In this document: positions 25,541-64,000 of the stretch, in pieces
Position numbering within the stretch: position 1 is the first letter of the stretch
Layout of the letters: each line of letters begins with the position of its first letter
Source: Escherichia coli
GTDB taxonomy: Bacteria; Pseudomonadota; Gammaproteobacteria; Enterobacterales; Enterobacteriaceae
DNA: 64,000 nt
Direction: 5' to 3' (one strand)
Assembly (NCBI RefSeq): GCF_013122565.1
Contig: NZ_CP053258.1
Translations under genes and position numbers: made by a program
Notes under the pieces: generated by a model
The model's database searches: none
Told to the model about the DNA's origin: nothing
What the model saw: only the letters and a program-made list of their open reading frames with translations

Positions 25541-25574
25541 CTTGCATTGAGTGATGTACGGAGTTTATAGAGCA

Positions 25575-32950: not shown

Positions 32951-32953
32951 AAT

Positions 32954-32975: not shown

Positions 32976-32981
32976 TCTGGC

Positions 32982-33628: not shown

Positions 33629-33659
33629 AATATGCCGCCCCAAAGGGCGGCATTCGGGC

Positions 33660-34109: not shown

Positions 34110-34234
34110 GTTGCTTAAAGAAAGTGAATTTACATGTTTAAGTAATATCTTTTACCGGTTAGTATTTTTAATATTGAGCGGGATTTGTTTATATTTGTCT
34201 GAATTCGGACTAATAAGCCAGGTCATTTTAATAT

Positions 34235-34310
34235 CGAACATATTGCGCCATTCTATGAACGTCGCTGGGGTGGTTTTTTGCGTGACTTTAAACAGAATCG
34301 GATAATCTAA
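34235..34310 (+). pseudogene. Duplicated 3-prime fragment of sseB (unit 3)
   Basis: Identical to sseB 32875-32950 including stop; followed by terminator hairpin copy. Confidence 0.8.
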
Positions 34311-34341
34311 AATATGCCGCCCCAAAGGGCGGCATTCGGGC

Positions 34342-34479
34342 TTACCTGCTGTTCTGAAGGTTGTTAACCACCAATAAATTGTTGCCGGAGAGACTCCGGT
34401 TATTATTTACCTCAGTTAACAGCGCACCAGAAACAATAAGTACGATACAGAAGCACCGTATCTTCATTGTGCGGTCCAT
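34342..34479 (-). CDS. Small hydrophobic peptide, candidate type I toxin, copy 3
   Basis: Same ORF; relative to copy 1 two synonymous changes and one D-to-N change (…SLSGNNLLVV…). Confidence 0.45.
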   Translation of the reverse strand: MDRTMKIRCFCIVLIVSGALLTEVNNNRSLSGNNLLVVNNLQNSR

Positions 34480-34693
34480 GCGAAGACCGCATCACGACAG
34501 CACCACTGGCGATATTGCCGCGATAGCAAGCACTGTGGGGTGCCTGTATTTACGGTCATGGAACATCCTTTCCTAAAGCCAGTGCCCGTTTGCGAGACGG
34601 CGAAAAGGGCCGTTAAGAATAATACTCTCATGTTTGAATAATTACTCTGTTTATTATCTTGACATGGCCAGGCATAAAAGAGAGTATTTCAAC

Positions 34694-47463: not shown

Positions 47464-47465
47464 TA

Positions 47466-47560
47466 ACGTGATGGGAAGCGCCTCGCTTCCCGTGTATGAT
47501 TGAACCCGCATGGCTCCCGAAACATTGAGGGAAGCGTTGAGGGTTCATTTTTATATTCAG
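47466..47560 (+). ncRNA. sroE: Possible SroE-like sRNA in the ispG-hisS intergenic region
   Basis: Position-only inference: I recall an sRNA (SroE) in the ispG-hisS spacer of E. coli; region contains hairpin gggaagcg-cctc-gcttccc (47473-47491). Sequence identity was not verified. Confidence 0.25.
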
Positions 47561-47573
47561 AAAGAGAATAAAC

Positions 47574-48863
47574 GTGTCGAAGAAAATTCAGTCTGTACGC
47601 GGTATGAATGATTATTTGCCAGTGGAAACCGCTGTATGGCAACGCGTTGAGCGCATAATTAAAAGCGTCGTTGAGTCTTACGGATACAGTGAGATTCGCA
47701 CACCTATTCTTGAGCAAACGCCACTGTTTAAGCGCGCTATCGGTGAAGTTACTGATGTTGTTGAAAAGGAGATGTACACCTTCAACGATCGTGAGCGTGA
47801 TGCGAAAGAGGTTGTTTCGTTAACTCTTCGCCCTGAAGGTACAGCAGGATGTGTACGCGCCGGCATCGAGCATGGCCTTCTGTACAATCAGGAACAGCGT
47901 TTGTGGTATATGGGACCGATGTTCCGCCACGAGCGCCCGCAAAAAGGGCGTTATCGTCAGTTCCACCAAATCGGTCTGGAAGTTTTCGGTCTGCAAGGTC
48001 CGGATATCGACGCTGAACTGATTATGCTCACCGCCCGCTGGTGGCGTGCGCTGGGTATCTCCGAACACGTAACTCTTGAGCTGAACTCTATCGGTTCGCT
48101 GGAAGCACGTGCCAATTACCGCGATGCGCTGGTGGCATTCCTCGAGCAGCATAAAGAAAAGCTGGACGAAGACTGCAAACGTCGCATGTACACTAACCCG
48201 CTGCGCGTGCTGGATTCAAAAAATCCGGAAGTGCAGGCGCTTCTCAACGACGCTCCGGCATTAGGTGATTATCTGGACGAGGAATCTCGTGAGCATTTTG
48301 CCGGTCTGTGCAAACTGCTTGAGAGCGCGGGGATCGCTTACACCGTAAACCAGCGTCTGGTGCGTGGTCTGGATTACTATAACCGTACCGTTTTCGAGTG
48401 GGTGACTAACAGTCTCGGCTCCCAGGGCACCGTGTGTGCAGGCGGTCGTTATGACGGTCTTGTGGAACAACTGGGCGGTCGTGCAACACCGGCTGTCGGT
48501 TTTGCGATGGGCCTCGAACGTCTTGTATTGTTAGTACAGGCCGTTAATCCGGAATTTAAAGCCGATCCTGTTGTCGATATCTATCTGGTGGCTTCAGGTG
48601 CTGATACACAATCTGCGGCTATGGCATTAGCTGAGCGTCTGCGTGATGAATTACCGGGCGTGAAACTGATGACCAACCACGGCGGCGGCAACTTTAAGAA
48701 ACAGTTTGCCCGTGCTGATAAATGGGGTGCCCGCGTTGCTGTGGTGCTGGGTGAGTCTGAAGTGGCTAACGGCACAGCTGTAGTGAAGGATTTGCGCTCT
48801 GGTGAGCAAACGGCAGTTGCGCAGGATAGCGTAGCCGCGCATTTGCGCACGTTACTGGGTTAA
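47574..48863 (+). CDS. hisS: Histidine--tRNA ligase
   Basis: Class II aaRS motifs; GTG start (first in-frame start; next Met would delete the conserved N-terminus); 429 aa; the first ~130 codons look divergent from the K-12 protein as I remember it. Confidence 0.93.
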
Positions 48864-48880
48864 GGAAGGAGAAGGACAGC

Positions 48881-49501
48881 GTGGAAATTTACGAGAACGA
48901 AAACGACCAGGTTGAAGCGGTTAAACGCTTTTTTGCTGAAAATGGCAAAGCACTGGCTGTTGGGGTGATTTTGGGCGTTGGCGCACTGATTGGCTGGCGC
49001 TACTGGAACAGCCATCAGGTTGATTCTGCACGCTCCGCTTCTCTTGCCTATCAAAATGCGATTACCGCAGTGAGCGAAGGCAAACCGGATAGTATCCCGG
49101 CGGCGGAAAAATTTGCTGCTGAAAATAAAAATACCTATGGTGCGCTGGCTTCTTTGGAACTTGCGCAGCAATTTGTTGACAAAAATGAACTAGAGAAAGC
49201 TGCCGCCCAGTTACAACAGGGGCTGGCAGACACGAGCGATGAAAATCTCAAAGCCGTGATAAATCTGCGTCTTGCTCGCGTTCAGATACAGCTCAAGCAG
49301 GCTGATGCCGCGCTGAAAACCCTTGATACCATCAAAGGTGAAGGGTGGGCTGCCATTGTTGCCGACCTGCGTGGTGAAGCATTGCTGAGCAAAGGTGATA
49401 AGCAAGGTGCGCGTAGTGCATGGGAAGCAGGCGTGAAAAGCGATGTTACTCCGGCACTGAGCGAAATGATGCAGATGAAAATTAATAATTTGTCCATCTG
49501 A
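48881..49501 (+). CDS. yfgM: TPR-like membrane-anchored protein YfgM
   Basis: GTG start; translation …EIYENENDQVEAVKRFFAENGKALAVGVILGVGALIGW (TM anchor); 206 aa. Confidence 0.92.
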   Translation: MEIYENENDQVEAVKRFFAENGKALAVGVILGVGALIGWRYWNSHQVDSARSASLAYQNAITAVSEGKPDSIPAAEKFAAENKNTYGALASLELAQQFVDKNELEKAAAQLQQGLADTSDENLKAVINLRLARVQIQLKQADAALKTLDTIKGEGWAAIVADLRGEALLSKGDKQGARSAWEAGVKSDVTPALSEMMQMKINNLSI

Positions 49502-49511
49502 GAGGGACCCG

Positions 49512-50690
49512 ATGCAATTGCGTAAATTACTGCTGCCAGGACTGCTTTCCGTTACCCTTTTAAGCGGCTGTTCGCTGTTTAACAGCGAAGAAGATGTGGT
49601 AAAGATGTCCCCATTGCCGACCGTTGAAAACCAGTTTACGCCGACCACGGCGTGGAGCACTTCCGTTGGTAGCGGCATTGGCAACTTCTATTCCAATCTT
49701 CATCCGGCACTGGCGGACAACGTTGTCTATGCAGCGGACCGCGCTGGTTTAGTAAAAGCGCTGAATGCGGATGATGGCAAAGAAATCTGGTCTGTCAGCC
49801 TGGCCGAGAAAGATGGCTGGTTCTCTAAAGAGCCTGCATTACTTTCTGGCGGTGTGACCGTGTCTGGTGGGCATGTCTACATTGGCAGCGAAAAGGCGCA
49901 GGTTTACGCGCTGAATACCAGCGATGGTACTGTGGCATGGCAAACTAAAGTCGCGGGTGAAGCACTTTCGCGCCCGGTGGTCAGCGACGGTCTGGTGTTA
50001 ATCCACACCAGTAACGGTCAGTTACAGGCGCTGAACGAAGCTGACGGCGCTGTCAAATGGACAGTTAACCTCGATATGCCTTCGCTCTCTTTGCGTGGCG
50101 AGTCTGCGCCAGCAACGGCTTTTGGTGCGGCCGTCGTGGGTGGCGATAATGGTCGCGTCAGTGCAGTGCTGATGGAACAAGGCCAGATGATTTGGCAGCA
50201 GCGTATTTCCCAGGCGACCGGTTCTACCGAAATTGACCGTCTGAGTGATGTTGACACGACTCCCGTCGTTGTTAACGGCGTTGTTTTCGCGCTGGCCTAT
50301 AATGGTAACCTGACGGCGCTTGATCTGCGCAGTGGTCAGATTATGTGGAAACGCGAACTGGGTTCGGTGAATGATTTCATCGTCGACGGCAATCGCATCT
50401 ATCTGGTCGATCAAAATGACCGGGTGATGGCGTTGACCATTGATGGCGGCGTTACGCTGTGGACACAAAGTGATCTGCTACATCGCCTGCTGACTTCTCC
50501 GGTGCTGTATAATGGCAACCTGGTGGTAGGTGACAGTGAAGGTTATCTGCACTGGATTAACGTCGAAGATGGTCGTTTCGTTGCCCAGCAAAAAGTTGAT
50601 AGTTCCGGTTTCCAGACTGAACCGGTTGCCGCTGACGGCAAACTGCTGATCCAGGCAAAAGACGGAACCGTGTACTCTATTACACGTTAA
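49512..50690 (+). CDS. bamB: Outer membrane protein assembly factor BamB (PQQ beta-propeller lipoprotein)
   Basis: Lipoprotein signal with lipobox LSGC; 392 aa. Confidence 0.95.
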   Translation: MQLRKLLLPGLLSVTLLSGCSLFNSEEDVVKMSPLPTVENQFTPTTAWSTSVGSGIGNFYSNLHPALADNVVYAADRAGLVKALNADDGKEIWSVSLAEKDGWFSKEPALLSGGVTVSGGHVYIGSEKAQVYALNTSDGTVAWQTKVAGEALSRPVVSDGLVLIHTSNGQLQALNEADGAVKWTVNLDMPSLSLRGESAPATAFGAAVVGGDNGRVSAVLMEQGQMIWQQRISQATGSTEIDRLSDVDTTPVVVNGVVFALAYNGNLTALDLRSGQIMWKRELGSVNDFIVDGNRIYLVDQNDRVMALTIDGGVTLWTQSDLLHRLLTSPVLYNGNLVVGDSEGYLHWINVEDGRFVAQQKVDSSGFQTEPVAADGKLLIQAKDGTVYSITR

Positions 50691-50711
50691 TCGTCTCTGT
50701 CGTTCACTTTG

Positions 50712-50749
50712 AAAACGGCTCCTGGACAGGGGCCGTTTTCCTGTTTTTA
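50712..50749 (+). terminator. Rho-independent terminator downstream of bamB
   Basis: Stem aaaacggc-t-cctg / cagg-g-gccgtttt followed by cctgttttt. Confidence 0.65.
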
Positions 50750-50807
50750 ACAACGACGCGAATATAGCGTGCGTTGTCTGATGATTTATAAAAATGAGGC
50801 TTTAAAC

Positions 50808-52280
50808 ATGGTACCTGTGGTCGCGCTTGTCGGGCGCCCTAACGTAGGAAAATCCACGTTATTTAACCGTCTAACTCGCACCCGAGATGCGCTGGTTGCG
50901 GATTTCCCGGGTCTGACTCGTGACCGTAAGTACGGTCGTGCGGAAATTGAAGGCCGTGAGTTTATCTGTATTGATACCGGCGGGATTGATGGTACAGAAG
51001 ACGGTGTAGAAACCCGCATGGCGGAACAGTCGCTGCTGGCGATTGAAGAAGCGGACGTCGTACTGTTTATGGTGGATGCGCGCGCGGGCCTGATGCCGGC
51101 AGATGAAGCGATTGCCAAACATCTGCGCTCCCGTGAAAAACCGACCTTCCTGGTGGCAAACAAAACTGACGGTCTGGATCCCGATCAGGCAGTGGTTGAT
51201 TTCTACTCGCTTGGTTTAGGTGAAATCTACCCGATCGCCGCGTCTCACGGTCGTGGCGTATTAAGTCTGCTGGAGCATGTGCTACTGCCGTGGATGGAAG
51301 ATCTCGCACCGCAAGAGGAAGTCGACGAAGACGCTGAATACTGGGCGCAATTTGAAGCGGAAGAGAACGGCGAAGAAGAAGAGGAAGACGACTTCGACCC
51401 GCAAAGTCTGCCGATCAAACTGGCGATTGTGGGTCGTCCGAACGTAGGTAAGTCTACACTCACTAACCGTATTCTTGGTGAAGAGCGCGTTGTTGTTTAT
51501 GACATGCCTGGTACGACGCGTGACAGTATCTACATTCCAATGGAACGCGATGGACGTGAGTATGTGCTCATTGACACCGCTGGCGTACGTAAACGCGGTA
51601 AAATCACCGATGCTGTAGAGAAATTCTCCGTAATCAAAACGTTGCAGGCCATTGAAGATGCCAACGTGGTGATGTTGGTGATTGATGCGCGCGAAGGTAT
51701 TTCCGATCAGGATCTCTCCCTGCTGGGCTTTATTCTCAATAGTGGGCGCTCACTTGTCATTGTGGTGAATAAGTGGGATGGCCTGAGCCAGGAAGTGAAA
51801 GAGCAGGTGAAAGAAACGCTGGACTTCCGTCTGGGCTTTATCGATTTTGCTCGTGTGCACTTTATCTCTGCCTTGCACGGCAGTGGTGTTGGTAACTTGT
51901 TTGAATCAGTACGTGAAGCGTATGACAGCTCCACCCGTCGTGTGGGGACCTCTATGCTGACGCGCATCATGACGATGGCTGTTGAAGATCACCAACCGCC
52001 GCTGGTACGCGGTCGTCGTGTGAAGCTGAAATATGCACACGCCGGTGGTTATAATCCGCCGATTGTGGTGATTCACGGTAACCAGGTGAAAGACCTGCCT
52101 GATTCCTACAAGCGTTACTTGATGAACTACTTCCGCAAATCGCTGGACGTAATGGGATCGCCGATTCGTATTCAGTTCAAAGAAGGGGAAAACCCGTATG
52201 CGAACAAGCGTAACACCCTGACGCCAACCCAGATGCGTAAACGTAAGCGCCTGATGAAGCACATCAAGAAAAGTAAGTAA
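50808..52280 (+). CDS. der: Ribosome assembly GTPase Der (EngA), tandem GTPase domains
   Basis: Two G1 motifs GRPNVGKST (N-terminal and about residue 213), acidic linker, KH-like C-terminus; start at internal ATG 50808 giving 490 aa. Confidence 0.96.
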
Positions 52281-52558: not shown

Positions 52559-52767
52559 TATCATCTGAATGTATGGTTTTATCATTTGTATTTAATATAT
52601 AAATGATAAAGCCATCTCTTATTGGTTAAATCACTAGTACATGTGAGTGAAATCATTTTGATAAATTTTTAGGAATATATTTAGTTTTTCTGACGTGCCT
52701 TCCTGAATGTTCTGGCATAGAATATTAGAGCTTATTCATCAAATTATCATTGCCACAGGGAAAGTGC

Positions 52768-54942
52768 ATGCTGCGATGGAGTCGCTTTATAATGTTACTA
52801 TTTATCTCTGCTGCAACTCCTGCGGCAGAGATAAATAGTAAGCAAAATGAATCGTTACCTGATTTAGGCAGCCAGGCGGCTCAACAAGTAGAACAAACGG
52901 ATAAGGGTAAATCGTTAAAAGAGCGTGGAGCCGATTACGTCATCGATTCTGCTACGCAAGGGTTCGAAAACCTGACCCCCGAGGCGCTGGAATCTCAGGC
53001 CAGAAGCTATCTGCAAAGTCAAATCACCTCAACCGCGCAATCTTATATTGAAGAGACACTCTCTCCCTACGGTAAGGTCCGTTCGAATCTCTCTATTGGT
53101 CAAGGTGGCGATCTGGATGGTAGCTCCATCGATTATTTTGTTCCCTGGTATGATAATCAAACGACCGTTTATTTCAGTCAATTTTCTGCGCAACGAAAAG
53201 AGGACCGTACGATCGGGAATATCGGAATTGGAGCAAGACATAATTTCGATGAATGGCTTTTGGGTGGAAATATATTTTACGATTATGATTTCACCCGTGG
53301 GCATCGACGTTTAGGTTTGGGGACAGAGGCCTGGACCAATTATTTAAAATTTTCTGGCAACTATTATCATCCGCTCTCTGACTGGAAAGACTCTGAAGAT
53401 TTCGACTTTTATGAAGAGCGCCCTGCGCGCGGTTGGGATATTCGCGCTGAAGCCTGGTTACCTTCTTATCCGCAACTGGGGGGCAAAATTGTCTTCGAGC
53501 AATATTACGGTGATGAAGTCGCCCTTTTTGGTACGGATAATTTAGAGAAAGATCCCTATGCGGTGACGCTAGGACTGAATTATCAACCGGTACCGTTACT
53601 GACAGTTGGAACGGATTATAAAGCGGGGACAGGAGATAACAGCGATGTCAGCATTAATGCCACTCTTAATTATCAATTCGGCGTTCCGCTAAAAGATCAA
53701 CTCGACAGCAATAAAGTAAAAGCAGCCCACTCGTTGATGGGCAGTCGCCATGATTTTGTCGAGCGTAATAACTTTATCGTCCTGGAATATAAAGAGAAAG
53801 ACCCTCTGGATGTGACGTTGTGGCTGAAAGCGGATGCGACCAACGAGCACCCTGAGTGCGTCATTAAGGACACTCCAGAAGCGGCGATCGGGCTGGAAAA
53901 ATGTAAGTGGACCATTAACGCACTGATCAATCACCACTACAAAATTGTCGCTGCGTCATGGCAGGCGAAAAACAATGCCGCCCGCACGCTGGTGATGCCG
54001 GTCATCAAAGAAAATACCATCACTGAAGGCAACAACAACCACTGGAATCTGATACTGCCAGCCTGGCAGTACAGCTCTGACAAAGCCGAGCAGGAAAAAC
54101 TCAACACCTGGCGGGTACGGCTGGCGCTGGAAGATGAAAAGGGTAATCGGCAAAACTCCGGCCTGGTTGAGATCACCGTTCAGCAGGACCGTAAAATTGA
54201 GCTGACCGTCAATAACATTGCTGATGTGCCTGATGAGAATAACCACAGCCATGAAGCCAGCGCTCAGGCGGATGGCGTTGATGGTGTGGTCATGGACCTC
54301 GAGGTGACGGACAGTTTTGGCGATAACACGGACCGCAACGGTGATGCTCTGCCAGAAGATAATCTTGCACCGCAGCTCTACGACGCTCAGGACAAAAAAG
54401 TCACGCTAACCAATAAACCCTGCTCGACCGACAACCCCTGCGTGTTTATTGCCAAACAAGATAAAGAAAAGGGAACGGTAACCCTCTCCAGTACATTGCC
54501 AGGCGTTTTCCGCTGGAAAGCGAAAGCGGCTCCCTACGATGACAGTAACTATGTGGATGTCACGTTTATTGGATCTGATATCGGCGGGCTTAATGCTTTC
54601 ATTTACCGGCTTGGGGGAGCGAAGCCAGTCAATTTGATCGGCAATGATAAAGACCCCCTGCCGCTGGGCAACACGTACCGATTTGTGTTGTGGCGTGATG
54701 CCAACAAAGACGGCGTTTTTCAGCAGTCGGAAAAACTAACCGATGAAGAGATGACTCAGTACGACTACAAGTGGGAATTTACCGGCAAGAGCATCAATGG
54801 CGAAGTAGGTGCGCAGGCGAACACATCCAATGCAGACATTGTAATACCGGCGACCAACCGTGAAGCGGCGCAATCCTATGGTGCAAAAGTGGAAGATGGC
54901 TTGCAGGGTTACGGTTTACGCGTGCTGTACACCAAAAAATAA
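52768..54942 (+). CDS. sinH: Intimin/invasin-family outer membrane protein (inverse autotransporter), SinH-like
   Basis: Signal peptide MLRWSRFIMLLFISAATPAAE; central region aligns by eye with the invasin/intimin beta-barrel domain (…EAWTNYLKFSGNYYHP…ERPARGWDIRAEAWLPSYPQLGGKIVFEQYYGDEVALFG…RNNFIVLEYKE); ATG at 52768 (track ORF starts at upstream TTG). Confidence 0.8.
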   Translation: MLRWSRFIMLLFISAATPAAEINSKQNESLPDLGSQAAQQVEQTDKGKSLKERGADYVIDSATQGFENLTPEALESQARSYLQSQITSTAQSYIEETLSPYGKVRSNLSIGQGGDLDGSSIDYFVPWYDNQTTVYFSQFSAQRKEDRTIGNIGIGARHNFDEWLLGGNIFYDYDFTRGHRRLGLGTEAWTNYLKFSGNYYHPLSDWKDSEDFDFYEERPARGWDIRAEAWLPSYPQLGGKIVFEQYYGDEVALFGTDNLEKDPYAVTLGLNYQPVPLLTVGTDYKAGTGDNSDVSINATLNYQFGVPLKDQLDSNKVKAAHSLMGSRHDFVERNNFIVLEYKEKDPLDVTLWLKADATNEHPECVIKDTPEAAIGLEKCKWTINALINHHYKIVAASWQAKNNAARTLVMPVIKENTITEGNNNHWNLILPAWQYSSDKAEQEKLNTWRVRLALEDEKGNRQNSGLVEITVQQDRKIELTVNNIADVPDENNHSHEASAQADGVDGVVMDLEVTDSFGDNTDRNGDALPEDNLAPQLYDAQDKKVTLTNKPCSTDNPCVFIAKQDKEKGTVTLSSTLPGVFRWKAKAAPYDDSNYVDVTFIGSDIGGLNAFIYRLGGAKPVNLIGNDKDPLPLGNTYRFVLWRDANKDGVFQQSEKLTDEEMTQYDYKWEFTGKSINGEVGAQANTSNADIVIPATNREAAQSYGAKVEDGLQGYGLRVLYTKK

Positions 54943-54996: not shown

Positions 54997-55974
54997 ATGA
55001 AGCAGGACAAAAGACGCGGTCTGACCCGGATCGCATTGGCGCTGGCACTGGCTGGTTACTGCGTGACGCCCCTGGCGCTGGCGGAAGACAGCGCGTGGAT
55101 CGACAGCGGCGAGACCAATATTTTCCAGGGGACTATTCCGTGGCTCTACCCCGTTGATGAAGATGAGGTAACTGGCGCGGGTCGGGTGACGTTAACCTCT
55201 GACTATAAAGGTACTCGTCCGTCGGGAAGTACATCCGACAAGCGTATGTACTCTGGCGACAAATTAACGCTCAGTTGGGTGATTGGCGATACTGAAGGCG
55301 ACGTCGATCTTGGTACGGCGGGTAAAGATGCAAAAACCATCGACACCATCCGCTGGATGAGCTACAAGGACGCCCAGGGTGGCGATCCGAAAGAGCTGGC
55401 AACAAAGGTGACCACTTACACCCTTACCGATGCCGACCGTGGTCGTTATATCGGTATTGAAATTACCCCAACCACCCAGACGGGTACGCCATACGTTGGG
55501 ACTGCGCTGCATCTTTATGATGTTTCGAATGCTAACGGCGGGGGAAGCGATAAAGATAACGTTGATCCAGGACCGGTAGTTAACCAGAACCTGAAAGTCG
55601 CCATCTTTGTTAAAGACACCTCGACTAACCTCATTAACGGTAGTACGCCAATCCAGTTGGGCAAAACGTACGTCGCCAAACTGTACTCGGATGAGAACAA
55701 AAACGGTCAGTATGACGCAGGTACTGACGTTGATGTTACCGCCAATTACGACTTCCGTTGGGTTCTTTCTGACACCAGCGATCAGCTCGGTACGGGGGGC
55801 GGCATTGTTAACTCAAGCTTCGATAATCAAAACCTGGTCATCCCTGCGACCAACGACGAAGCCAGAACCAACCTTAACGGCCCTGCTCGTGATGGCAAAG
55901 ATGCCCTTGCGATCCCGACCAACGGCGATGGGGTTCAGGGTTACAAACTGCAGATTATCTACAAACACAAATAA
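54997..55974 (+). CDS. sinI: Secreted protein with SinH-like C-terminal domain, SinI-like
   Basis: Signal peptide MKQDKRRGLTRIALALALAGYCVTPLALA; C-terminus (…LVIPATNDEA…DGVQGYKLQIIYKHK) parallels the SinH C-terminus (…IVIPATNREA…DGLQGYGLRVLYTKK). Confidence 0.7.
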   Translation: MKQDKRRGLTRIALALALAGYCVTPLALAEDSAWIDSGETNIFQGTIPWLYPVDEDEVTGAGRVTLTSDYKGTRPSGSTSDKRMYSGDKLTLSWVIGDTEGDVDLGTAGKDAKTIDTIRWMSYKDAQGGDPKELATKVTTYTLTDADRGRYIGIEITPTTQTGTPYVGTALHLYDVSNANGGGSDKDNVDPGPVVNQNLKVAIFVKDTSTNLINGSTPIQLGKTYVAKLYSDENKNGQYDAGTDVDVTANYDFRWVLSDTSDQLGTGGGIVNSSFDNQNLVIPATNDEARTNLNGPARDGKDALAIPTNGDGVQGYKLQIIYKHK

Positions 55975-55983: not shown

Positions 55984-56011
55984 AACAGCATTCCCGCAAG
56001 GGAATGCTGTT
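55984..56011 (+). terminator. Terminator-like hairpin downstream of sinI
   Basis: 12-bp stem aacagcattccc / gggaatgctgtt with GCAA loop, followed by T-rich tccgcatatttt. Confidence 0.6.
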
Positions 56012-56015: not shown

Positions 56016-56050
56016 CATATTTTGCTTAATCCAGGATTAAGCAAAATATG
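56016..56050. promoter_or_regulatory. Perfect 35-bp palindrome upstream of ratA (candidate operator or attenuator)
   Basis: catattttgcttaatcc-a-ggattaagcaaaatatg: 17-bp arms with no mismatches, 45 bp upstream of the ratA ATG. Confidence 0.4.
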
Positions 56051-56094
56051 TTGATGCGGTAACCGTTCGTTAAATAACTGGTGGAGTTCTTTTC

Positions 56095-59000
56095 ATGTCC
56101 CAGCCCCTGAAACCCGGCACTTTTTATGTTCTGCTTGTATTGCTGCTAACCGCAATGCTGCCGGGATGGTCATGGGCGGGCTCATCATGGCAAGACTCAT
56201 CCGATACGGCGGGTGAATTTAACGGTACCGTCCCCAATGCCGACAGCGCCAGTATGCCGGTTTATCAGGGCAGTATTTGGCTTGATCCTGCAAAGCCCCA
56301 TGATGTTTCGTTTTCCGCTAAACCCAATGAATTTAGCGTTAATCTGGATGTGTCGAAGCTGATTGTGACGAACCCGCAGGACCTGGAAGGCGATGTGTTT
56401 ACCAACCCGCGTTGGGAAAACCAAACGCCGCCAGTGGTCTCTTTAGTCTGGGCGGATGCGGCGACACCGGAAACCCCACTTAATCCTCAGCCAGTGGCTG
56501 GGCGTTCCTTTTGTGCGCAAGGGCTTGCCGGGCGTTCGCTGGTTGTCTGGCCGCAGCCAGACCCACAGCAGACCATGCCGCAGCTTTATCTACGCACCTC
56601 GACAGGTTATCCCTATGAAAGTCTTCTGACGCTTGTCGATAAGAAAGTGACGTTAAATATTGCACCGGCCCAGGGCGACTTAATTTCTGTCAGCGCGGCC
56701 GGTTATGACGACACCGTGGGCGGGGCGAAAACTACCGTTGGCGGCAATATCACGTTGACCGTTACCACCAAAGACTGCAGCGGTAACGTTGCCGGAAATA
56801 TTCCTTTTATTATCAAACGCAAAGATGCTGAAAACCGACAGGGCGCAGTCAACAATGCTTCGCCGGTTGTTCTGGACAAAACTGAACTGACCACTATCGC
56901 GACCGAATATCACAGCACCACGGATGCGAACGGCGTTGCGACGATCACGGTCACGCAACCCAACGGCCCTGGTGTAAAAACGCCGCTGGTAGCCAGTCTT
57001 TCAGGTATTGGTCAAACCAGTGAAACGGCAGTGATCTTTACCGTCCTTACCAGCCCGGATGTCCCTCAAGCCATGATGTGGGGCCATATGCCCGATACGC
57101 TAAAGGCCCATGATTATACGTTCAGTCGGCCAAAACTGGCGGCGGAGGTCGATAACGAAAATGGTACCGTTAACGATCACAATGAAACCTGGTCTACCTT
57201 CACCTGGAATGGTGCGGATAAACATTGCGACATTTTGCCTGGTATGCGCCAGTTTGGCGCGTTGGCAACGGTGGTGCCCACGACAGTTCAGGATCTCGTT
57301 GGTTGGCCGATACAGGGTAACTACTACTGGTCATCACTGGCGGGGATGACCGGACAGCACCATGCGGCGGATGTTTCCAACCGTAGCGAAGCGCAAAAAC
57401 CGGACGATACGACGTTTATTGTCAGTTGTGTCGATAAAGACGCTCCTGACGTTGAACCGAAACTGGTGCTAACACCGGGAAGCTATGATTCGACGTTAAA
57501 GGCGATGAAAGTAAAGGTGGGGGAAGAAGCGTCTCTGCGTGTAACCATCACCGATAATAAAAACAATAATCAACCGCTGGCGTATTACTACTTTTCGTTA
57601 CATCTGGATGACGGCATCAACCGTAAAAATCAATCGGATGCGGCATGGGAAGCGCATCCGGTGCAGATAGCGGGTGGCAGCAATGTCCATCAGGTTGACG
57701 CGCATACCTATGAAGGCATTACGGATGTGAACGGTCAGGCATCACTGACGCTAACGCAACCGGGCGGCGCGGGCGTGAAAACACACATTACTGCGAAAAT
57801 GCGCAGCGACTTCACCACGTCGGATGAGAAAGACGTGATTTTTACAGTCATTACCAGCCCCGATACTGACAAAGCCCGGATGTGGGGGCATATGCAGGGT
57901 ATTATTGATTCTAATAATATCTTTAAACGTCCACGGCTGGCAGATGAAACCGACCATGAACTCGATTCAGTGCGAGAGAACAACGAAGACTGGGCGCTGT
58001 TCGACCAAAATGGCAGCATGCAGGCTGAATGTGGTGTAGGTCATATTCCGAGCCAGAATCAATTACAGGGTCTGTTCACGGCGCATCCTGGCAATGCGAT
58101 TGGCACCGAATATGGCTGGCCGACGGCGCAAAAAGATTACCTTAGTGCGGTACAACAAGAGCCACACTCCTCCGTGAACCTGGGCACAGGTAACATCGAC
58201 ACCTATTCAGGCTTTAAGCAGAACTATCTCTCCTGTTCCGGTAATGAGATGGTTGCTCAGATTACCGCAACGACCGATCATGACGTTTCCGTGGGTAGCA
58301 GGGCGCAGGCTAAAGTTGGAGAAACCGTCACCATGACGGTGCATACCTTCAATGCACTGAATAATGCGCCCGTGCCGTTTACCGCCTTCAGCATCACAAA
58401 GGAGATGGGTAAAAACCGTCAGGGGCAGACTACCGGATATACCGATCCGACGAGTGGCGCAATTGAGATGAATGGCAAGCTCTACGGAACATCCCAGGCC
58501 TCGGTGGTTTATTCCGGGACTACGGATGCACAGGGCTACGCAACGGTGGAGATTGAACAACCGCAGGGCGTGGGCTTAGCGACGCCGCTAAATATTGCGC
58601 CTGTGAACTCCTACATTCCCAATACAGTAAATTACAACGTGATTTTCACCACGCCTACCAGCCCGGATGCGGTGGCGGCGCAGATGTGGGGGCATATGGA
58701 TGAGACTATTACAGTCGATTCTTTAACCTTCACCCGGCCTAAACTGGCAGCGGAAGTTTCCAGCCCGGATGCGACATTGACAGAAAATAATGAAGTCTGG
58801 GCGCGTGTGAGTCAGGCGAATACATCCAGTATAAGTAAAGGTGGCTGCGGAGCGAATATGCTGCCGCGTCGATCCCAGCTTAGCGCGCTCTATGATGCCA
58901 ATAACGGTAATGCTGTACAGACAGTACACGGCTGGCCAACTCTGCGTGAGCCTTACTGGAGTAGTTCCCCTGCGGATAAAGTTCCTCATTTTTACACCAT

Positions 59001-62000
59001 TGCTCTCAATGATGGCGCACAGGCTATTGGCGGTAGCAACGCGGTTTATGTCAGCTGCCTGACGACGGCAAATAATCCTGCAAACGCTATTACTTTAGAG
59101 GTGGTGGATCAGGCGCAATGGAACGCGACGGCGAAAGCGGCGAAGCTGAAAAAAGGCGAAACGCTCCAGGTTAAGGTAACGGTGAAGGATGCTCAGGGCA
59201 ATGCACTGTCGGATATGCCATTCACCCTGAAACGTGGCGATGGTTATACTCGCTCAAATGAAAAACATATTGCTGGCAGCGGGGATGCGCTGGTTGCGCC
59301 AGTCATCGTCAACGGTGGCCTGACGGATGAGACTTCACTGAATGACACCGCGACAGCATACGCTACCATGACCGGCAGCGACGGCACTAAAATACTTACC
59401 ATAACCCGCCCTGAGACGCATGGCACCAAAACGGCGCTGATCGCTGCGCTGTATTCTGATGCAACGAAAAACGCCAGCCTCGACACCATTTTTACCGTTG
59501 CGACCAGCCCGGACAGCGATAAGGCGAAAATGTGGGGGCACATGGCGGAAACGGTGACGGCTACTGACGGCACGGTATTTAAACGCCCGCGCTTACTGAA
59601 AGAGTGGTCAACTCAGTCCTCTCTTACTGAAGATAATGAGGTCTGGGGGTTGTATAACATCAGCGATGCAAAATCTACCAGCAATGGCTGTGGCGCTAAT
59701 TATGTTCCTGCGCAGGTTGGGCTGGAGTCACTGTTTGACAATAACCGCAGCAACGCGATGAAAACCGTACAAGGTTGGCCGGTAGATACCCATTATCTTT
59801 CAAATACCTCAAGTACCGACAGTTTATCGCAGCATAATTACAAAGCCGTGGATCTGGGCAATGGTACCAGTACCTCAATATCCGCTTCCGAGAGGAAGTT
59901 GTTAACCTGCCAGACGACCGCGGTGTTACAGGCAAGCCAGATTCTGCTGGACGCAGCGGATCCAACCACCTTCGACAGCACAAATAATGTTGTCAAAGTT
60001 AAAAAAGGCGAAGCGGCAGTGGTGCGTGTAACCACGAAGGATTCGCAGGGGAATCCTGTAGGAAATACCGCATTTACCCTCAAACGAAACCACAGCGTGA
60101 ACAGGGCTAATGCGTCGAATACCACGTCGATTGCTTCACTGGTGGTAACGGATGCATGGGGAAATACTCAGGACAGTTTTCTTTCAACGTCCCTGGTCAT
60201 ATATGGCGTAACGGGGGCCGATGGCACCACCACCTTTACACTGAAACAAGACCAGTCTACCGGCTTAAAAACGGAACTCACGGCAGCGCTGGACTCCTCC
60301 AGCAGCATTACATCGTCGCTTCCCGTCGTCTTTACGGTGCTTACCAGCCCGGATTCGCCAAAAGCCAAATTCTGGGGGCATATGGCTGAAACGGCGACAG
60401 GCGATGACGGTCTCATTTATAAAAGACCATTGCTGAGAGACGAGATTAGCGCCTCTAGCGGTATCAGCACCCTGACAGAAGAGGGGGAAAACTGGTCTGC
60501 ATTCTGGGCGAACAATGCTAATGATACTTCGATAAGTGGTTGTGGCGCAGAGTATGTTCCCTCTGCCGATGAACTTAAGGCCATTTATGCGCACCAGGGG
60601 GGGAGCGCATTGCATGGTGCTATTGGCTGGCCAGTTTCGAAGCCCTATATCTCGAATACCGTCGCAGATATGTTCACTCAACCCTTTAAGTTTGATGTCG
60701 TTTCGCTGAAGACAGGAGATGAAACACAGATTTCATCAGGTAGTGGTGTAGGGCCTCTGAGTTGCCGGACCACACCTGTCGCCGTTGCCAGTCAGATCAT
60801 TGTTGAGGCGAACGATGCGGCGCAATTTGTCAAAGTTGACGATACCTTGAGTGCACTGAAAGTGAAAAAAGGTGAAGACGCGGTGATTCGCGTGGTGACC
60901 AAGGATGCGCAGGGGAATACCGTGCCCAATGTTCCCTTTATTCTCAAGCGCGAGGGCTCGAGAAACCGTCAAAATGTCGAGATGATAAACAAATCGATTA
61001 CGGTGATTAACGCGGCAGGGACTTCTACGAATGTGCTTAGTTCGTCAACACTGCTTTATGGGGTAACGGGCGCGGACGGGACTACCACGTTTACAGTAAA
61101 ACAAGATGATTCTATGGGTCTGATGACCAATATGTACGCTCAGTTGTATCAGTCGACGATAGAATCCAACAAATTACCGGTGATGTTTACCGTTATAACC
61201 AGCCCGGATACGCCTCTGGCAAACTACTGGGGGCATATGTCTGAAACCTTCACGACAAGGTCGGGGGTTGTCTTCAAGCGGCCAATGCTTAGTGCCGAGC
61301 ATCCAGCGGGGCAGTCAACCGTGGATAATAATGAAACCTGGCTTTCCTTGAATACAGCAGCAAAAAATGATGTCAGCAAATCAGGCTGTGACGAACCTTA
61401 TCAACCGTTATTAAGCGAACTTCAGGAGTTGTACAGTGAACATCCTAATGGTGCGATAGGAACCGATTTAGGCCTGCCGCTGACGAAAACCTGGTGGGCT
61501 TACGATAAAGTGGCCAACTCGAATGCCTGGTACGATCAGTCTGTTAATTTGTCGAATGGGTCAAGCGCCAGGGCGTCGTCAACCACCGTGGCGTTTGTGC
61601 CCTGTCTGGTAAACCCTCATCCAGTGGCTGCTTCTATTGAGATAACCTCCACGGCACTGGATGCGGAGAAAACGGCCAGTAACGATGGTCGCCCCAGCGC
61701 AACCGCACCGAAAGGTACGGCGATCCGGATGACGGTGATTGTGCGGGATAGCGCAGGAAATCCATTGCCCGGCGCCAACTTTAACCTCGTACGCGGGACG
61801 GCATTGGATCGTGCAAAATACAGTGTCGATAGTTCAGCTGATGATCTTACTCTCGTGCCTGTCACGCCTGCTGGCGTAAATATGACTCTCACGAGTAATA
61901 CATCAAAAGCACTGTTGACGACAGGCAGTGATGGTAAAGTGACCTTTGATGTGACGCAAAACGGGACTTATGGGCTGGCAACCCCGCTCACTGCAACATT

Positions 62001-64000
62001 GCTACGCGACACTTCAATAAGCGCCACGATGGATGTCATTTTCACGGTGATAACCAGTCCCGACTCACCGAAAGCAAAATACTGGGGTCATATGCCCGAC
62101 ACGTTTACCAGCAGTGCGGGGGTGACCTTTAAACGGCCGCTACTGGCAGCCGAAGCGACCTCCGGGTCCTCGGTTGGCAGTAATAATGAGTCGTGGTCAT
62201 ACATTGGTATTAACGAAAGAGCTACGTCGGATTGCTCACTGGAGTATCAGCCGCGTCTTAATGAGTTACAGGGGTTATATAACGATCATCCTGGCGGGGC
62301 CATACAGACGGATCTGGGGTTACCTGTAGCTGCCGGAAGTGGAAACTGGTGGGCTTATGAAATGAGTATGCCTAACCCCAGCGGGTCGGTGTGGTTTTAC
62401 GGCATCATTAATTTGAAAACGGGACAATCGTCGACCACGTCGAGTGGATTCGCTTTAATGCTCTGCCTGACGCAGCCGCATACGGTACCGGCAAGCCTTA
62501 CACTGTCATCAACCGCCTACGATGAAGGCAGAACCGCCAGCAATGGTGGCACACCTACGTCATCTGTGAAAAAAGGTGAGACGCTTCCCTTAGTGGTGAC
62601 GATCAAAGATGCCAATGGTAACCCCGTTGGCGGCGAAGGCGTTACGCTCAAGCGCGCGCAGGCGAAAAGCCGTTCAGGTATCTCTGTCTCCCCCACTACC
62701 GCCGATGATCTTATTTTAAATGAAGTCACACCGGAATCAGCCAGCTTTTCCTTCGCCGCGGATTTGGCATCATGGAGCGGCATCACCGGCAGTGACGGCA
62801 CTGTAACGTTCAATATTACACAAAAAAATACAATCGGCCTGGTAACGCCGTTTACAGCCTCATTGGGGCGAAATCCGCAGGTCACCGCCAACCAGGACCT
62901 GATGTTCACGGTGGTAACCAGCCCGGATTCGCCGAAGGCAAACTACTGGGGGCATATGCCAGCAACCTTGACGGCAGTGAATGGTGCGGTATTTGAACGC
63001 CCGAAATTGTGGAGTGAACTGCCATCGACCTCCGGCGTCGGCAAGATCAATAACAATAATGAGGACTGGCCGTACTATTCACCGACAAAAAAATCTGATG
63101 AGAGTGTGACCCCTTGCGAAGTGGCAAGACAGCCTCTGCTTAGTGATTTAAATTCGCTGTCTGCGCGTTATCCGAATAACTCCTTCGCTGCTGAAACGGG
63201 CTGGTCTGTGTATTACACCTGGTGGGCAGAGGATAAATCCGCCGCGGGTAAAGATCAGTCGGTGGATTTGAGAGATGGCACGCTGTATACGTATGCATCA
63301 GGAGCATTTCAACCTTGCCTGGTTAACGCGCGTTCAACTGTTTCTAGCGTCACACTTACCTCAACGGCGTTTGACGCTACCACTCAGGCGGCGAAAGTGA
63401 AAAAAGGCGAAGCCATGCCGGTGACGGTCACGGTGAAAGACAGCGCCGGGAAAACGGTGCCGAATGTGGCTTTTACCCTGAAACGCGGTGATGCTGCGCC
63501 AAGAAACCCTGGTATGGCCTTGTACGGTGATGTGGATGCGATGGATGACCTGACCGTTCAACCGACATCGGGAGCGGCGGTGACGTGGTCTGAAAGTGGC
63601 AACTTGCTACAGGGGACCACTGGCTCTGACGGCACCGCGACGTTTATGATTAAACAGGATCATTCGCCGGGCTATAAAACCCCTTTGACGGTCACGTTGG
63701 ACAATAACACCAGCATCACTGCGACAATGGACGCTATTTTCACCGTCGTGACCAGCCCGAATGTCTCAAGCGCCTATTACTGGGGGCACATGGCAGATAC
63801 GACCACGGTGAACGGTAAAACACTGCATCGCCCGTTGTTGGCATCGGAGCTACCTGCGAATGCTTCTTCCCCAGCCACGCCTGACGTAAACAATGAAGCC
63901 TGGGCTATGGGGCATATGGTGGATTCAAGGAATTGGGATATCGAGGCGCAGTGTGGCAGCTTGACCAACGCGCCAAACGATGACGACTTAATGGGTCTGT
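56095..64000 (+). CDS. ratA: Giant repetitive surface/secreted protein, RatA-like; 3-prime end beyond window
   Basis: ATG at 56095 preceded by GGTGGAG; signal-peptide-like N-terminus [28 protein letters not shown]; the frame has no listed ORF (no in-window stop) and every repeat landmark checked lies in this frame; synteny after sinH-sinI. Confidence 0.8.
57049..64000 (+). repeat. In-frame tandem repeats within ratA (~805-865 bp, ~270-290 aa each, at least 9 copies)
   Basis: Motif accagcccggat (TSPD) followed ~30 nt later by tgggg(g)ca(t/c)atg (WGHM) recurs at 57049, 57853, 58657, 59503, 60343, 61198, 62053, 62917 and 63751. Confidence 0.9.

What the first reader, a model, noticed from the sequence alone, without database searches (positions are those of the whole stretch)
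56095..64000. Giant open reading frame with at least nine tandem ~280-aa repeats, missing from the ORF track
From the ATG at 56095 one plus-strand frame shows no listed ORF and carries every repeat landmark checked through the window end (more than 2,600 codons); it is absent from the six-frame table because it has no stop in the window. The protein has a signal-peptide-like N-terminus and a periodic module ending in …FTV(L/I/V)TSPD…(M/Y/F)WGHM…, preceded by Ig-like beta-rich segments (…GxDGTxTFTxKQ…G(L/V)xTPLTA). This matches what I recall of RatA/RatB of the Salmonella CS54 island and E. coli ratA. Repeat units differ enough (periods 804-864 bp) to suggest long-standing divergence.
Basis: partly seen in the sequence, partly recalled or inferred. 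Interest (0 to 1): 0.6.

Follow-up and report, generated by a model that had tools for sequence, protein, structure and literature searches.

The report
Known giant RatA-like adhesin gene
The long open frame is the already annotated E. coli ratA-like gene, which encodes a giant adhesin made of nine repeated modules and sits in the known sinH-sinI-ratA island, so it is real but ordinary.

Summary
From the ATG at 56095 the + frame stays open for 2,635 codons to the window end.

The product scores 5,143.6 bits against NCBIfam NF011844 'RatA-like protein' (cutoff 3,870). It has a Sec-type signal peptide, then a family-specific N-terminal domain of about 190 aa. Nine alternating BIg21 (PF05688) and InvE_AD (PF05689) domain pairs follow.

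The gene lies directly downstream of sinH (an inverse autotransporter) and sinI, in the island between der/yfgJ and xseA. Annotated E. coli orthologues are 2,683 aa, so about 49 codons and the stop lie just beyond the window. 948 of 5,426 complete E. coli genomes carry the gene.

Each repeat is homologous to the Ig-like plus adhesion domains of Yersinia InvE (PDB 5n40). The repeats are only 28-47% identical to each other, so they diverged long ago.

The likely role is a Sec-exported adhesin, possibly passed across the outer membrane by SinH. That hypothesis is published but untested for RatA.

One possibly new detail emerged. The SinI and Rat families share a conserved motif at their mature N-termini, and the sinH-sinI-rat gene order held in all seven divergent lineages sampled.

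Novelty: already known. Interest is low.

The parts
52768..54942 (+). sinH, an intimin-like inverse autotransporter with an outer-membrane beta-barrel. It is the candidate translocator. The likely start is the ATG at ORF residue 7; the ORF as listed runs 52750-54942.
   Evidence: NCBIfam NF033423 inverse_SinH, 1,465.1 bits (cutoff 999), residues 7-730 against profile 1-730. It is intact here but a pseudogene in the closest relative, LHM10-1.
54997..55974 (+). sinI, a SinI-family autotransporter-associated protein with a signal peptide. Its C-terminal ~100 aa resemble the SinH C-terminus. Its mature N-terminus carries the motif shared with Rat-like proteins.
   Evidence: NF040711 partner_SinI, 321.9 bits (cutoff 165). 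Residues 208-325 also match SinH profile positions 625-730. Motif evidence.
55984..56011 (+). First hairpin of the sinI-ratA spacer: 12-bp perfect stem, 4-nt loop, followed by GTTTCC. It looks like a terminator or attenuator.
   Evidence: spacer RNA fold -47.3 kcal/mol, z = -6.65. The stem is kept by different sequences in L013 and L008.
56016..56050 (+). Second hairpin or palindrome of the spacer: 17-bp perfect arms with 1 nt between them. It could be an RNA structure or a protein-binding site. Its function is unknown.
   Evidence: The GCTTA...TTAAGC core is conserved across loci.
56080..56086 (+). Shine-Dalgarno sequence GGTGGAG, 8 nt upstream of the ATG.
   Evidence: Read directly from the sequence. 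It is conserved in LHM10-1, CFT073 and KE55.
56095..64000 (+). ratA-like coding sequence, cut at its 3' end by the window. 2,635 of an expected ~2,684 codons are present. The stop is expected near 64147-64149 if the length matches the closest orthologue.
   Evidence: It is 97.6% aa identical to the 2,683-aa LHM10-1 protein (WP_089601673.1) and 81.0% identical to the CFT073 protein.
56095..56178 (+). Predicted Sec signal peptide, [28 protein letters not shown], with cleavage inferred after SWA.
   Evidence: Hydropathy and motif inspection. All homologues have equivalent N-termini. No dedicated predictor was run.
56179..56241 (+). Mature N-terminal motif [21 protein letters not shown]. The family consensus is LK-x-G-x-W-Q-x5-T-G-x-I-N-G-T-x-P, and it is shared with the SinI family. 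The copy in this protein is degenerate.
   Evidence: Profile-profile comparison gives P = 2.3e-6, with controls. A SinI-only motif HMM scores the window's RatA at 7.5 bits against a best noise score of 6.4. AlphaFold pLDDT is below 55 over this stretch.
56179..56742 (+). Rat-family-specific N-terminal domain, aa 29-216. It is all-beta and has no Pfam model.
   Evidence: No Pfam hit. Only 41 hits among 1.84 billion representatives, and the long ones all carry the domain at their N-terminus. AF2 pLDDT 80.4. No PDB fold match with E below 0.1. There are remote AFDB matches to small Yersinia and Budvicia 'invasin domain' proteins.
56704..57507 (+). Repeat unit 1: BIg21 at aa 217-318 and InvE_AD at aa 321-446. 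Unit boundaries are approximate; each was set 125 aa upstream of the WGHM landmark.
   Evidence: Pfam. The AF2 model's best PDB match is InvE 5n40, E = 2e-19, followed by intimin 1f00, E = 3.4e-5.
57508..58311 (+). Repeat unit 2: BIg21 at aa 476-586 and InvE_AD at aa 589-715.
   Evidence: Pfam.
58312..59157 (+). Repeat unit 3: BIg21 at aa 742-853 and InvE_AD at aa 857-989.
   Evidence: Pfam.
59158..59997 (+). Repeat unit 4: BIg21 at aa 1021-1136 and InvE_AD at aa 1139-1272.
   Evidence: Pfam.
59998..60852 (+). Repeat unit 5: BIg21 at aa 1305-1416 and InvE_AD at aa 1419-1556.
   Evidence: Pfam.
60853..61707 (+). Repeat unit 6: BIg21 at aa 1593-1701 and InvE_AD at aa 1704-1838.
   Evidence: Pfam.
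61708..62571 (+). Repeat unit 7: BIg21 at aa 1875-1986 and InvE_AD at aa 1989-2124.
   Evidence: Pfam.
62572..63405 (+). Repeat unit 8: BIg21 at aa 2161-2274 and InvE_AD from aa 2277.
   Evidence: Pfam.
63406..64000 (+). Repeat unit 9, the last one. Its BIg21 is complete, and its InvE_AD is cut by the window end.
   Evidence: Pfam on the 98%-identical orthologue shows BIg21 at about aa 2437-2551 and a shortened InvE_AD at about aa 2554-2656, then the stop.

Best explanation
This is the 5' 98% of the Escherichia coli ratA-like gene, the third gene of the sinH-sinI-ratA ('ila', CS54-like) island inserted between der/yfgJ and xseA.

Shown: the product is a ~2,683-aa protein with a Sec-type signal peptide and a ~190-aa all-beta N-terminal domain found only in Rat-like proteins. 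Nine tandem modules follow, each an Ig-like BIg21 domain plus an InvE-type adhesion domain. Each adhesion domain has two invariant cysteines. Each module is homologous to the receptor-binding end of Yersinia InvE and resembles that of intimin.

Inferred: the protein is exported to the periplasm by Sec, and the paired cysteines form one disulfide per adhesion domain. It then reaches the cell surface or the medium. There it would act as a long, multivalent, non-fimbrial adhesin or colonisation factor presenting nine different binding heads.

Inferred with about 50% confidence: outer-membrane passage depends on the co-encoded inverse autotransporter SinH, in a ZirT/ZirS-like 'two-partner type Ve' arrangement. 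SinI may serve as a co-substrate or adaptor. It shares its C-terminal domain with SinH and an N-terminal motif with RatA.
For: Identity:
- NF011844, 5,143.6 bits against a cutoff of 3,870, aligned end to end.
- 98.1% nt and 97.6% aa identity to an annotated 2,683-aa E. coli CDS in the same locus.
- Nine BIg21 + InvE_AD pairs.

Module homology:
- A profile of the nine repeats hits PDB 5n40 (Y. pseudotuberculosis InvE) at E = 8.6e-45 over 238 profile positions.
- The AF2 model of repeat 1 matches 5n40 (E = 2e-19), intimin 1f00 (E = 3.4e-5) and invasin 1cwv (E = 3.2e-3).
- There are two invariant Cys per repeat, at +49 to +57 and +116 to +130 from each WGHM.

Export: the signal-peptide features are present.

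Link to SinH and SinI:
- The order IAT-barrel gene, sinI-like gene, rat-like gene held in all seven divergent Rat-like lineages sampled. One of them (L005) sits at a different chromosomal site.
- The SinI and Rat families share a mature N-terminal motif: hhalign P = 2.3e-6, against 0.14 for the reversed control, at least 0.02 for 30 column shuffles and 0.43-0.55 for unrelated profiles.
- A SinI-only motif HMM ranks the Rat N-termini directly after the SinI proteins among 5,744 six-frame ORFs.

Literature:
- Heinz et al. 2016 (PMC4943183) proposed Rat-like proteins as substrates of SinH-type inverse autotransporters.
- ZirT-dependent secretion of ZirS was shown experimentally (PMC2270342).
- Salmonella RatB is reported to be needed for optimal caecal colonisation in mice (Kingsley 2003, as cited in PMC8011750).
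- Deleting ila-cluster genes is reported to attenuate UPEC in mouse UTI (Shea 2022, as cited in PMC12928451).
Against: - No experiment shows that RatA is surface-exposed, secreted or dependent on SinH.
- The two perfect hairpins between sinI and ratA suggest that ratA may be transcribed or regulated separately from sinH-sinI.
- The closest relative, LHM10-1, keeps an intact ratA next to a sinH pseudogene, which argues against strict co-dependence.
- A ~280-kDa protein with nine disulfide-bonded domains is a difficult cargo for a 12-stranded barrel.
- The shared N-terminal motif is weak in the window's own RatA (7.5 bits against a noise maximum of 6.4).
- Block shuffles show that the profile-profile significance rests on short local motifs, not on a collinear domain alignment.
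- The ZirU profile appears to start downstream of the motif region of SinI, so the motif is probably not general to Zir-type substrates.
- No ligand is known for any InvE_AD domain.
Confidence: 0.85

Rival explanations
1. RatA is a Sec-exported adhesin, but its outer-membrane passage or release does not use SinH. It could stay periplasmic, be released in vesicles, or use another route. On this view the conserved neighbourhood reflects co-regulation or joint inheritance of an adhesin island, not a translocator-substrate relationship.
For: The closest relative has an intact ratA beside a sinH pseudogene. Two strong hairpins separate sinI from ratA. A review states that sinH is co-transcribed with sinI and does not mention ratA (PMC12525524). 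IatB/SinH mediates biofilm formation on its own (PMC6714894). The size and disulfide content of RatA make barrel transit hard to picture.
Against: The three-gene order held in all seven divergent lineages sampled, including one at a different chromosomal site. SinI and Rat-like proteins share an N-terminal motif. RatA has no beta-barrel, TPS domain or T1SS features of its own, and no other secretion genes lie in the island.
Confidence: 0.3
2. The gene is a decaying, no longer functional relic in this strain.
For: Pseudogene alleles exist. GN04592 has an internal stop at codon 905, and KE55 has lost one repeat. Salmonella ratB is a recurrent pseudogene in host-adapted lineages (PMC8011750).
Against: All 2,635 codons are open here, while the other frames carry 81-177 stops. 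The start codon, Shine-Dalgarno sequence and signal peptide are intact. All nine domain pairs are recognised by Pfam at E values of 1e-14 to 1e-35. The neighbouring sinH and sinI are also intact.
Confidence: 0.04
3. RatA is a self-sufficient secreted giant adhesin of another class: an inverse autotransporter, a classical TpsA, or a T1SS-exported Big-repeat adhesin like SiiE or BapA.
For: It shares large size, Ig-like repeats and an adhesin annotation with these classes.
Against: No IAT_beta (PF11924), TPS or RTX domains were found anywhere in the 2,635 aa. It has an N-terminal Sec signal peptide, not a C-terminal T1SS signal. No ABC transporter, MFP or TpsB genes lie in the island.
Confidence: 0.02

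Closest known systems
E. coli RatA-like protein (NCBIfam NF011844 / PRK15316), e.g. WP_089601673.1 of strain LHM10-1 and WP_000059885.1 of CFT073, in the 'ila' sinH-sinI-ratA cluster
   Same: Same locus between sinI and xseA, same 2,683-aa length, and the same nine BIg21 + InvE_AD units. Amino-acid identity is 97.6% to LHM10-1 and 81.0% to CFT073.
   Different: The window carries the rare allele class. Only 10 of the 948 ratA-positive complete genomes are 95-99% identical at the nucleotide level, and the common ExPEC/B2-type allele is 80-90% identical. Divergence from CFT073 is uneven along the gene, 59-92% per 100 aa, and highest at the N-terminus, around aa 1200-1300 and in the last unit.
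Salmonella enterica RatA (1,860-aa profile, NF011843) and RatB (2,435-aa profile, NF011842) of the CS54 island
   Same: Same domain architecture, same N-terminal Rat-specific domain (46-49% identical), and same position downstream of sinH-sinI (L006).
   Different: The number of repeat units differs. Salmonella has two paralogues plus shdA. The window protein scores below both curated cutoffs (2,051.8 < 3,700 and 2,218 < 4,079), so it is not an equivalog of either.
Yersinia pseudotuberculosis InvE (PDB 5n40)
   Same: Each RatA repeat aligns to the InvE Ig-like + adhesion domain pair, including the TSPD...WG.M...FKRP..AAE...NNETW...GWP signature (E = 8.6e-45; Foldseek E = 2e-19, 33% identity).
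   Different: From my own knowledge, InvE is an inverse autotransporter with its own barrel and a single terminal adhesion domain. RatA has no barrel and strings nine such heads in series.
Intimin and invasin receptor-binding superdomain (PDB 1f00, 1cwv)
   Same: An Ig-like domain followed by a disulfide-containing adhesion domain. The fold similarity is detectable (E = 3.4e-5 and 3.2e-3).
   Different: There is no sequence-level match. TM-scores are low (0.25-0.28). Tir- or integrin-binding determinants were not examined.
ZirT/ZirS/ZirU two-partner inverse-autotransporter secretion (Salmonella)
   Same: An inverse-autotransporter gene is followed by barrel-less, signal-peptide-bearing, Ig-rich proteins. 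SinI has a weak ZirU_fam match (E = 1.5e-4). The analogy was proposed in PMC4943183 and PMC6714894.
   Different: Secretion through the barrel protein has been shown only for ZirS and ZirU (PMC2270342, PMC4943183). RatA is about ten times larger. The SinI/Rat N-terminal motif seems to be absent from the ZirU profile.

Membership tests
NCBIfam NF011844 RatA-like protein (equivalog) | Whole-protein score at or above the curated cutoff of 3,870 bits, with an end-to-end alignment | tested here: met
   5,143.6 bits; residues 5-2632 against profile 3-2631 of 2,683, even though the last ~49 residues are missing.
NCBIfam NF011843 RatA / NF011842 RatB (Salmonella equivalogs) | Score at or above the curated cutoffs of 3,700 and 4,079 bits | tested here: not met
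   2,051.8 and 2,218 bits, aligned mainly over the first ~1,460 residues. It is a homologue, not an equivalog.
DUF823/DUF824 (InvE_AD/BIg21) repeat adhesins | Alternating BIg21 (PF05688) and InvE_AD (PF05689) domains | tested here: met
   Nine pairs, with i-Evalues of 1e-14 to 1e-35. The ninth adhesion domain was seen in full in the 98%-identical orthologue.
Rat-like proteins | The family-specific ~190-aa domain directly after the signal peptide | tested here: met
   41 hits among 1.84 billion representatives. The long ones all place the domain at about residues 30-220 of proteins of 743-2,708 aa.
CS54 / ila island | Gene order sinH-sinI-rat, inserted between der/yfgJ and xseA | tested here: met
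   The upstream side is seen in the window. The downstream xseA lies outside the window but is present in both full-length orthologous loci.
Inverse autotransporter (type Ve) | An N-terminal 12-stranded IAT beta-barrel domain (PF11924) | tested here: not met
   RatA has no PF11924 hit. The barrel is in the neighbouring SinH.
Two-partner type Ve substrates (ZirS/ZirU-like) | A signal peptide, no barrel, Ig-type domains, and a gene downstream of an inverse-autotransporter gene on the same strand | tested here: met
   and the conserved synteny.
Two-partner type Ve substrates (ZirS/ZirU-like) | Secretion across the outer membrane that depends on the partner barrel protein | not testable with these tools
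   This requires sinH deletion and fractionation experiments. It exists only as a hypothesis in PMC4943183.
Classical two-partner secretion TpsA | An N-terminal TPS domain (NPNL/NPNGI motifs) and an Omp85-type TpsB partner | tested here: not met
   The N-terminal 216 residues have no Pfam hit. The partner is an IAT barrel, not an Omp85 protein.
T1SS giant adhesins (SiiE/BapA type) | No Sec signal peptide, a C-terminal secretion signal, and adjacent ABC/MFP/OMP genes | tested here: not met
   An N-terminal signal peptide is present, and the island contains no T1SS genes.

The most novel reading that the evidence does not exclude
SinH, SinI and RatA form one export or docking chain held together by shared modules. 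SinI has a C-terminal domain homologous to the SinH C-terminus. It also has a mature N-terminal segment homologous to that of all Rat-like proteins. That segment has the consensus LK-x-G-x-W-Q-x5-T-G-x-I-(Q/N)-G-T-x-P, followed by DTEGD at the same distance of about 69 residues.

The motif would be the targeting or docking signal of a 'two-partner type Ve' pathway, the functional counterpart of the TPS domain. SinI would be either a co-substrate using the same signal or an adaptor between SinH and the giant adhesin. I did not find this shared motif described in the papers I read. Heinz et al. 2016 call the Rat N-terminus 'highly divergent'.
Probability: 0.35. Interest if true: 0.5.

Novelty: already known. 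Interest (0 to 1): 0.18.

Why it matters
As a finding it mostly closes a question. The 'missing' ORF is a product of the window edge, and the gene is a catalogued E. coli adhesin gene with a curated family model. It is present in about 17% of complete E. coli genomes and is part of an island already studied in UPEC and Salmonella.

What remains open is how a ~280-kDa protein with no barrel of its own reaches the surface, and what its nine different adhesion heads bind. Two results here make the published 'two-partner inverse autotransporter' hypothesis directly testable by mutagenesis. One is the strictly conserved sinH-sinI-rat order. The other is the N-terminal motif shared by the SinI and Rat families. 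Since SinH is being pursued as an ExPEC vaccine antigen (PMC9937491), a SinH-dependent giant adhesin would be relevant to that work.

Tried and rejected
- **Word-indexed protein search, N-terminal domain.** It returned only short fragments. The exhaustive representative search replaced it.
- **Foldseek of the N-terminal domain model against PDB.** Nothing scored below E = 0.16, so no fold assignment was made. AFDB50 gave only Rat-like proteins and remote small 'invasin domain' proteins of Yersinia and Budvicia. No SinI family member was in the top 50, so structure did not independently confirm the SinI-RatA link.
- **Direct BLASTP of the RatA N-terminus against SinI and SinH.** Neither was significant alone: best E = 0.015 against SinI and nothing against SinH. 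The signal appears only at the family-profile level.
- **First hhalign run, full domains with -M first.** It gave only P = 6.8e-4 and 27% probability. The anchored-window run (E = 1.7e-9) is inflated by how I cut the windows, so I do not rely on it. The unanchored 120-column run with controls is the one I cite.
- **Apparent absence of sinH from L003/L004.** This turned out to be a contig-end artefact. The 3' end of sinH is present there.
- **Tandem Repeats Finder.** It found nothing, as expected, because its maximum period is 500 nt and the units are too diverged.
- **Simple promoter scan.** It found no sigma-70-like site upstream of ratA, and its hit count matched the shuffled expectation, so it is uninformative.
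- **Primary papers.** Kingsley 2003, Shea 2022 and the InvE structure paper are not held in the library. Their content is cited second-hand or from memory and marked as such.

Full report
**Observation**

Translating window 56095-64000 on the + strand gives 2,635 sense codons and no stop. The nearest upstream in-frame stop is TAA at 56071. The first start codon after it is the ATG at 56095, preceded by GGTGGAG at 56080-56086. The other five frames of the same span contain 81-177 stops each.

The ORF list shows no + strand ORF there only because the tool omits ORFs that run off the end of the source.

Nine ...FT(V/T)xTSP(D/N)...WGHM junctions lie at aa 329, 597, 865, 1147, 1427, 1712, 1997, 2285 and 2563. 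Their spacings are 804, 804, 846, 840, 855, 855, 864 and 834 nt. The gene's G+C content (52.2%) equals that of the window (52.3%).

**Identity**

- The product scores 5,143.6 bits against the curated NCBIfam equivalog NF011844 'RatA-like protein' (cutoff 3,870). Residues 5-2632 align with profile positions 3-2631 of 2,683.
- The two ORFs immediately upstream are SinH (NF033423, 1,465.1 bits, cutoff 999) and a SinI-family protein (NF040711, 321.9 bits, cutoff 165). They are preceded by the yfgJ-type zinc-ribbon gene and der.
- In complete E. coli genomes the same DNA is annotated as an 'adhesion domain-containing protein'. It is 8,052 nt (2,683 aa) long and lies between sinI and a convergent xseA.
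- The window protein is 97.6% identical to that of strain LHM10-1 and 81.0% identical to that of CFT073. Its last residue aligns with residue 2,634 of 2,683. About 49 codons and the stop therefore lie just beyond the window.
- 948 of 5,426 complete E. coli genomes carry the gene, always as one chromosomal copy. Only 10 of them have the window's allele class (95-99% nt identity), and 928 are at 80-90%.
- The flanking housekeeping genes are at best 98.4% identical to any complete genome. A 100%-identical SinI is on record as E. coli. The source is therefore an E. coli of a sparsely sampled lineage.

**Anatomy**

Pfam finds nine alternating BIg21 (PF05688) and InvE_AD (PF05689) domains and nothing else significant. 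The ninth adhesion domain was seen in full, and is somewhat shortened, in the 98%-identical orthologue.

Residues 1-28 look like a Sec signal peptide.

Residues 29-216 have no Pfam model. An exhaustive search of 1.84 billion representative proteins found only 41 relatives. All of the long ones (743-2,708 aa) carry this domain at about residues 30-220, directly after a signal peptide. An AlphaFold model (pLDDT 80.4) is all-beta, and its first ~20 mature residues have low confidence. It has no convincing PDB match. In AFDB50 it has remote matches to small 'invasin domain' proteins of Yersinia and Budvicia.

The nine repeat units are 268-288 aa long and 28-47% identical to each other. They share 26 invariant positions, including two cysteines per unit. 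At the DNA level they resemble each other only in patches of at most 121 nt. It also explains why the copy number is fairly stable.

Even so, E. coli KE55 has an eight-unit allele of 2,397 aa. GN04592 has an internal stop at codon 905. Relatives in other taxa range from 1,562 to 2,708 aa.

**What the module is**

A profile of the nine repeats hits one solved structure, PDB 5n40 (Y. pseudotuberculosis InvE). The match has E = 8.6e-45 and covers the Ig-like domain and the adhesion domain, including the TSPD...WG.M...FKRP..AAE...NNETW...GWP signature.

An AlphaFold model of repeat 1 (pLDDT 73.8) matches three structures:
- 5n40, E = 2e-19;
- the C-terminal fragment of EPEC intimin (1f00), E = 3.4e-5;
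- invasin (1cwv), E = 3.2e-3.

Each unit is therefore a copy of the receptor-binding end of the intimin/invasin/InvE class. RatA strings nine different copies in series. It has no beta-barrel, no TPS domain and no T1SS features of its own.

**How it most likely works**

Shown: the domain architecture, the signal-peptide features, the conserved cysteine pairs, and the gene neighbourhood.

Inferred from family knowledge: Sec export, disulfide formation in the periplasm, and display or release as a long multivalent adhesin. Second-hand literature supports a colonisation role for the family. Salmonella RatB is needed for optimal caecal colonisation in mice (Kingsley 2003, cited in PMC8011750). Deleting ila-cluster genes attenuates UPEC in mouse UTI (Shea 2022, cited in PMC12928451).

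The open step is passage across the outer membrane. Heinz et al. (PMC4943183) proposed that Rat-like proteins are substrates of SinH-type inverse autotransporters. Their analogy was ZirT, which secretes ZirS and ZirU (PMC2270342). Goh et al. raised the same possibility for E. coli IatB/SinH (PMC6714894).

I tested two predictions of this idea.

1. **Synteny.** Seven Rat-like representatives with only 40-62% identity in the N-terminal domain were traced to contigs. All seven lie in the order IAT-barrel gene (725-740 aa), sinI-like gene (319-337 aa), then one or two rat-like genes. One of them (L005) sits at a different chromosomal site, next to a poly(A) polymerase gene. An apparent exception (L003/L004) was a contig-end artefact.
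2. **A shared signal.**
   - *The motif.* The SinI family and the Rat family both begin their mature chains with (N)LK-(S/G)-G-x-W-Q-x5-T-G-x-I-(Q/N)-G-T-x-P. Both also have DTEGD about 69 residues in.
   - *The test.* An unanchored profile-profile comparison of the first ~120 mature columns gives P = 2.3e-6 and 89% probability, aligning both islands.
   - *Controls.* The reversed control gives 0.14, thirty column shuffles give at least 0.02, and unrelated profiles give 0.43-0.55.
   - *What drives the score.* Block shuffles that keep the local motifs still reach 4e-6. The signal therefore lies in the short motifs, not in a long collinear alignment.
   - *Independent check.* A motif HMM built from SinI sequences alone ranks the Rat N-termini directly after the SinI proteins among 5,744 six-frame ORFs. 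The window's own RatA scores only 7.5 bits against a noise maximum of 6.4.

Both results fit a functional three-gene module. SinI shares its C-terminus with SinH and its N-terminus with RatA.

Several observations argue against strict dependence on SinH:
- LHM10-1 keeps an intact ratA beside a sinH pseudogene.
- Two perfect hairpins lie between sinI and ratA, at 55984-56011 and 56016-56050. The spacer RNA fold has z = -6.65, and the first stem is kept by different sequences in other taxa. This suggests separate transcriptional control.
- The cargo is very large.

I put SinH-dependent export at about 0.5 and SinH-independent behaviour at about 0.3.

**Comparison and novelty**

The gene is a member of NF011844 (tested, met). 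It is not an equivalog of Salmonella RatA or RatB (tested, below both cutoffs). It is a BIg21/InvE_AD repeat adhesin (met). It is not an inverse autotransporter, a TpsA or a T1SS adhesin (tested, not met).

The finding is therefore already known. There are exactly nine units, and the protein belongs to the Escherichia 'RatA-like' orthologue group.

The only possibly new element is the N-terminal motif shared by the SinI and Rat families. I could not find it described in the papers available to me. It would need experiments to mean anything.

**Scores**

- Interest: 0.18.
- Novelty: already known.
- Novel reading (the shared N-terminal module as a docking or targeting signal of a two-partner type Ve system): probability 0.35, interest 0.5 if true.

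Noticed in passing
window 32949-34613 (-): Three tandem copies of ryfA (the timP toxin mRNA; 32949-33253, 33627-33931, 34309-34613) alternate with two IS128/ryfB-type sRNA copies (33385-33595, 34067-34277), between sseB and sseA. Among 5,426 complete E. coli genomes only strain MEW (from an ivory gull) gives a collinear full-length match annotated with three timP genes. Nearly all the other genomes listed have a single copy.
   Followed up: partly
window 55984-56011 and 56016-56050 (+), the sinI-ratA spacer: Two perfect hairpins (12-bp and 17-bp stems) fill the 120-nt spacer. The RNA fold is -47.3 kcal/mol with z = -6.65. The first stem is kept by different sequences in distant loci, and the second keeps a GCTTA...TTAAGC core. 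They may act as a terminator or attenuator, or as a protein-binding palindrome, controlling ratA separately from sinH-sinI.
   Followed up: partly
window 55084-55152 (SinI mature N-terminus) and 56179-56241 (RatA mature N-terminus): The SinI family and the Rat family share a conserved motif directly after the signal peptide, and both have DTEGD about 69 residues further in. The profile-profile P value is 2.3e-6, with clean reversed and shuffled controls. I did not find this described in the papers I read.
   Followed up: yes
window 46345-52280: The housekeeping stretch from ispG to der is at best 98.4% identical to any of 5,426 complete E. coli genomes. The ratA allele class of the window occurs in only 10 of them. 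The source therefore appears to be an under-sampled E. coli lineage.
   Followed up: no
L001 8674-10848; L015 2336-10378; L016 3502-10695: The island decays in different ways in different strains. sinH is a pseudogene next to an intact ratA in LHM10-1. ratA has an internal stop at codon 905 in GN04592. KE55 has an in-frame eight-unit allele of 2,397 aa.
   Followed up: partly
window 52573-52615 (+), between yfgJ and sinH: An AT-rich inverted repeat with a 19-bp stem (ATGGTTTTATCATTTGTATTT...AAATGATAAAGCCAT) lies about 150 nt upstream of sinH, at the left edge of the island. It could be a regulatory site or an island-boundary feature.
   Followed up: no
window 25464-25573 (+) and 47463-47554 (+): The iscRS stability element and the sRNA sroE sit at their expected places, and the gene order from hmp/glyA to der looks the same as in K-12. 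Nothing unusual was seen.
   Followed up: no
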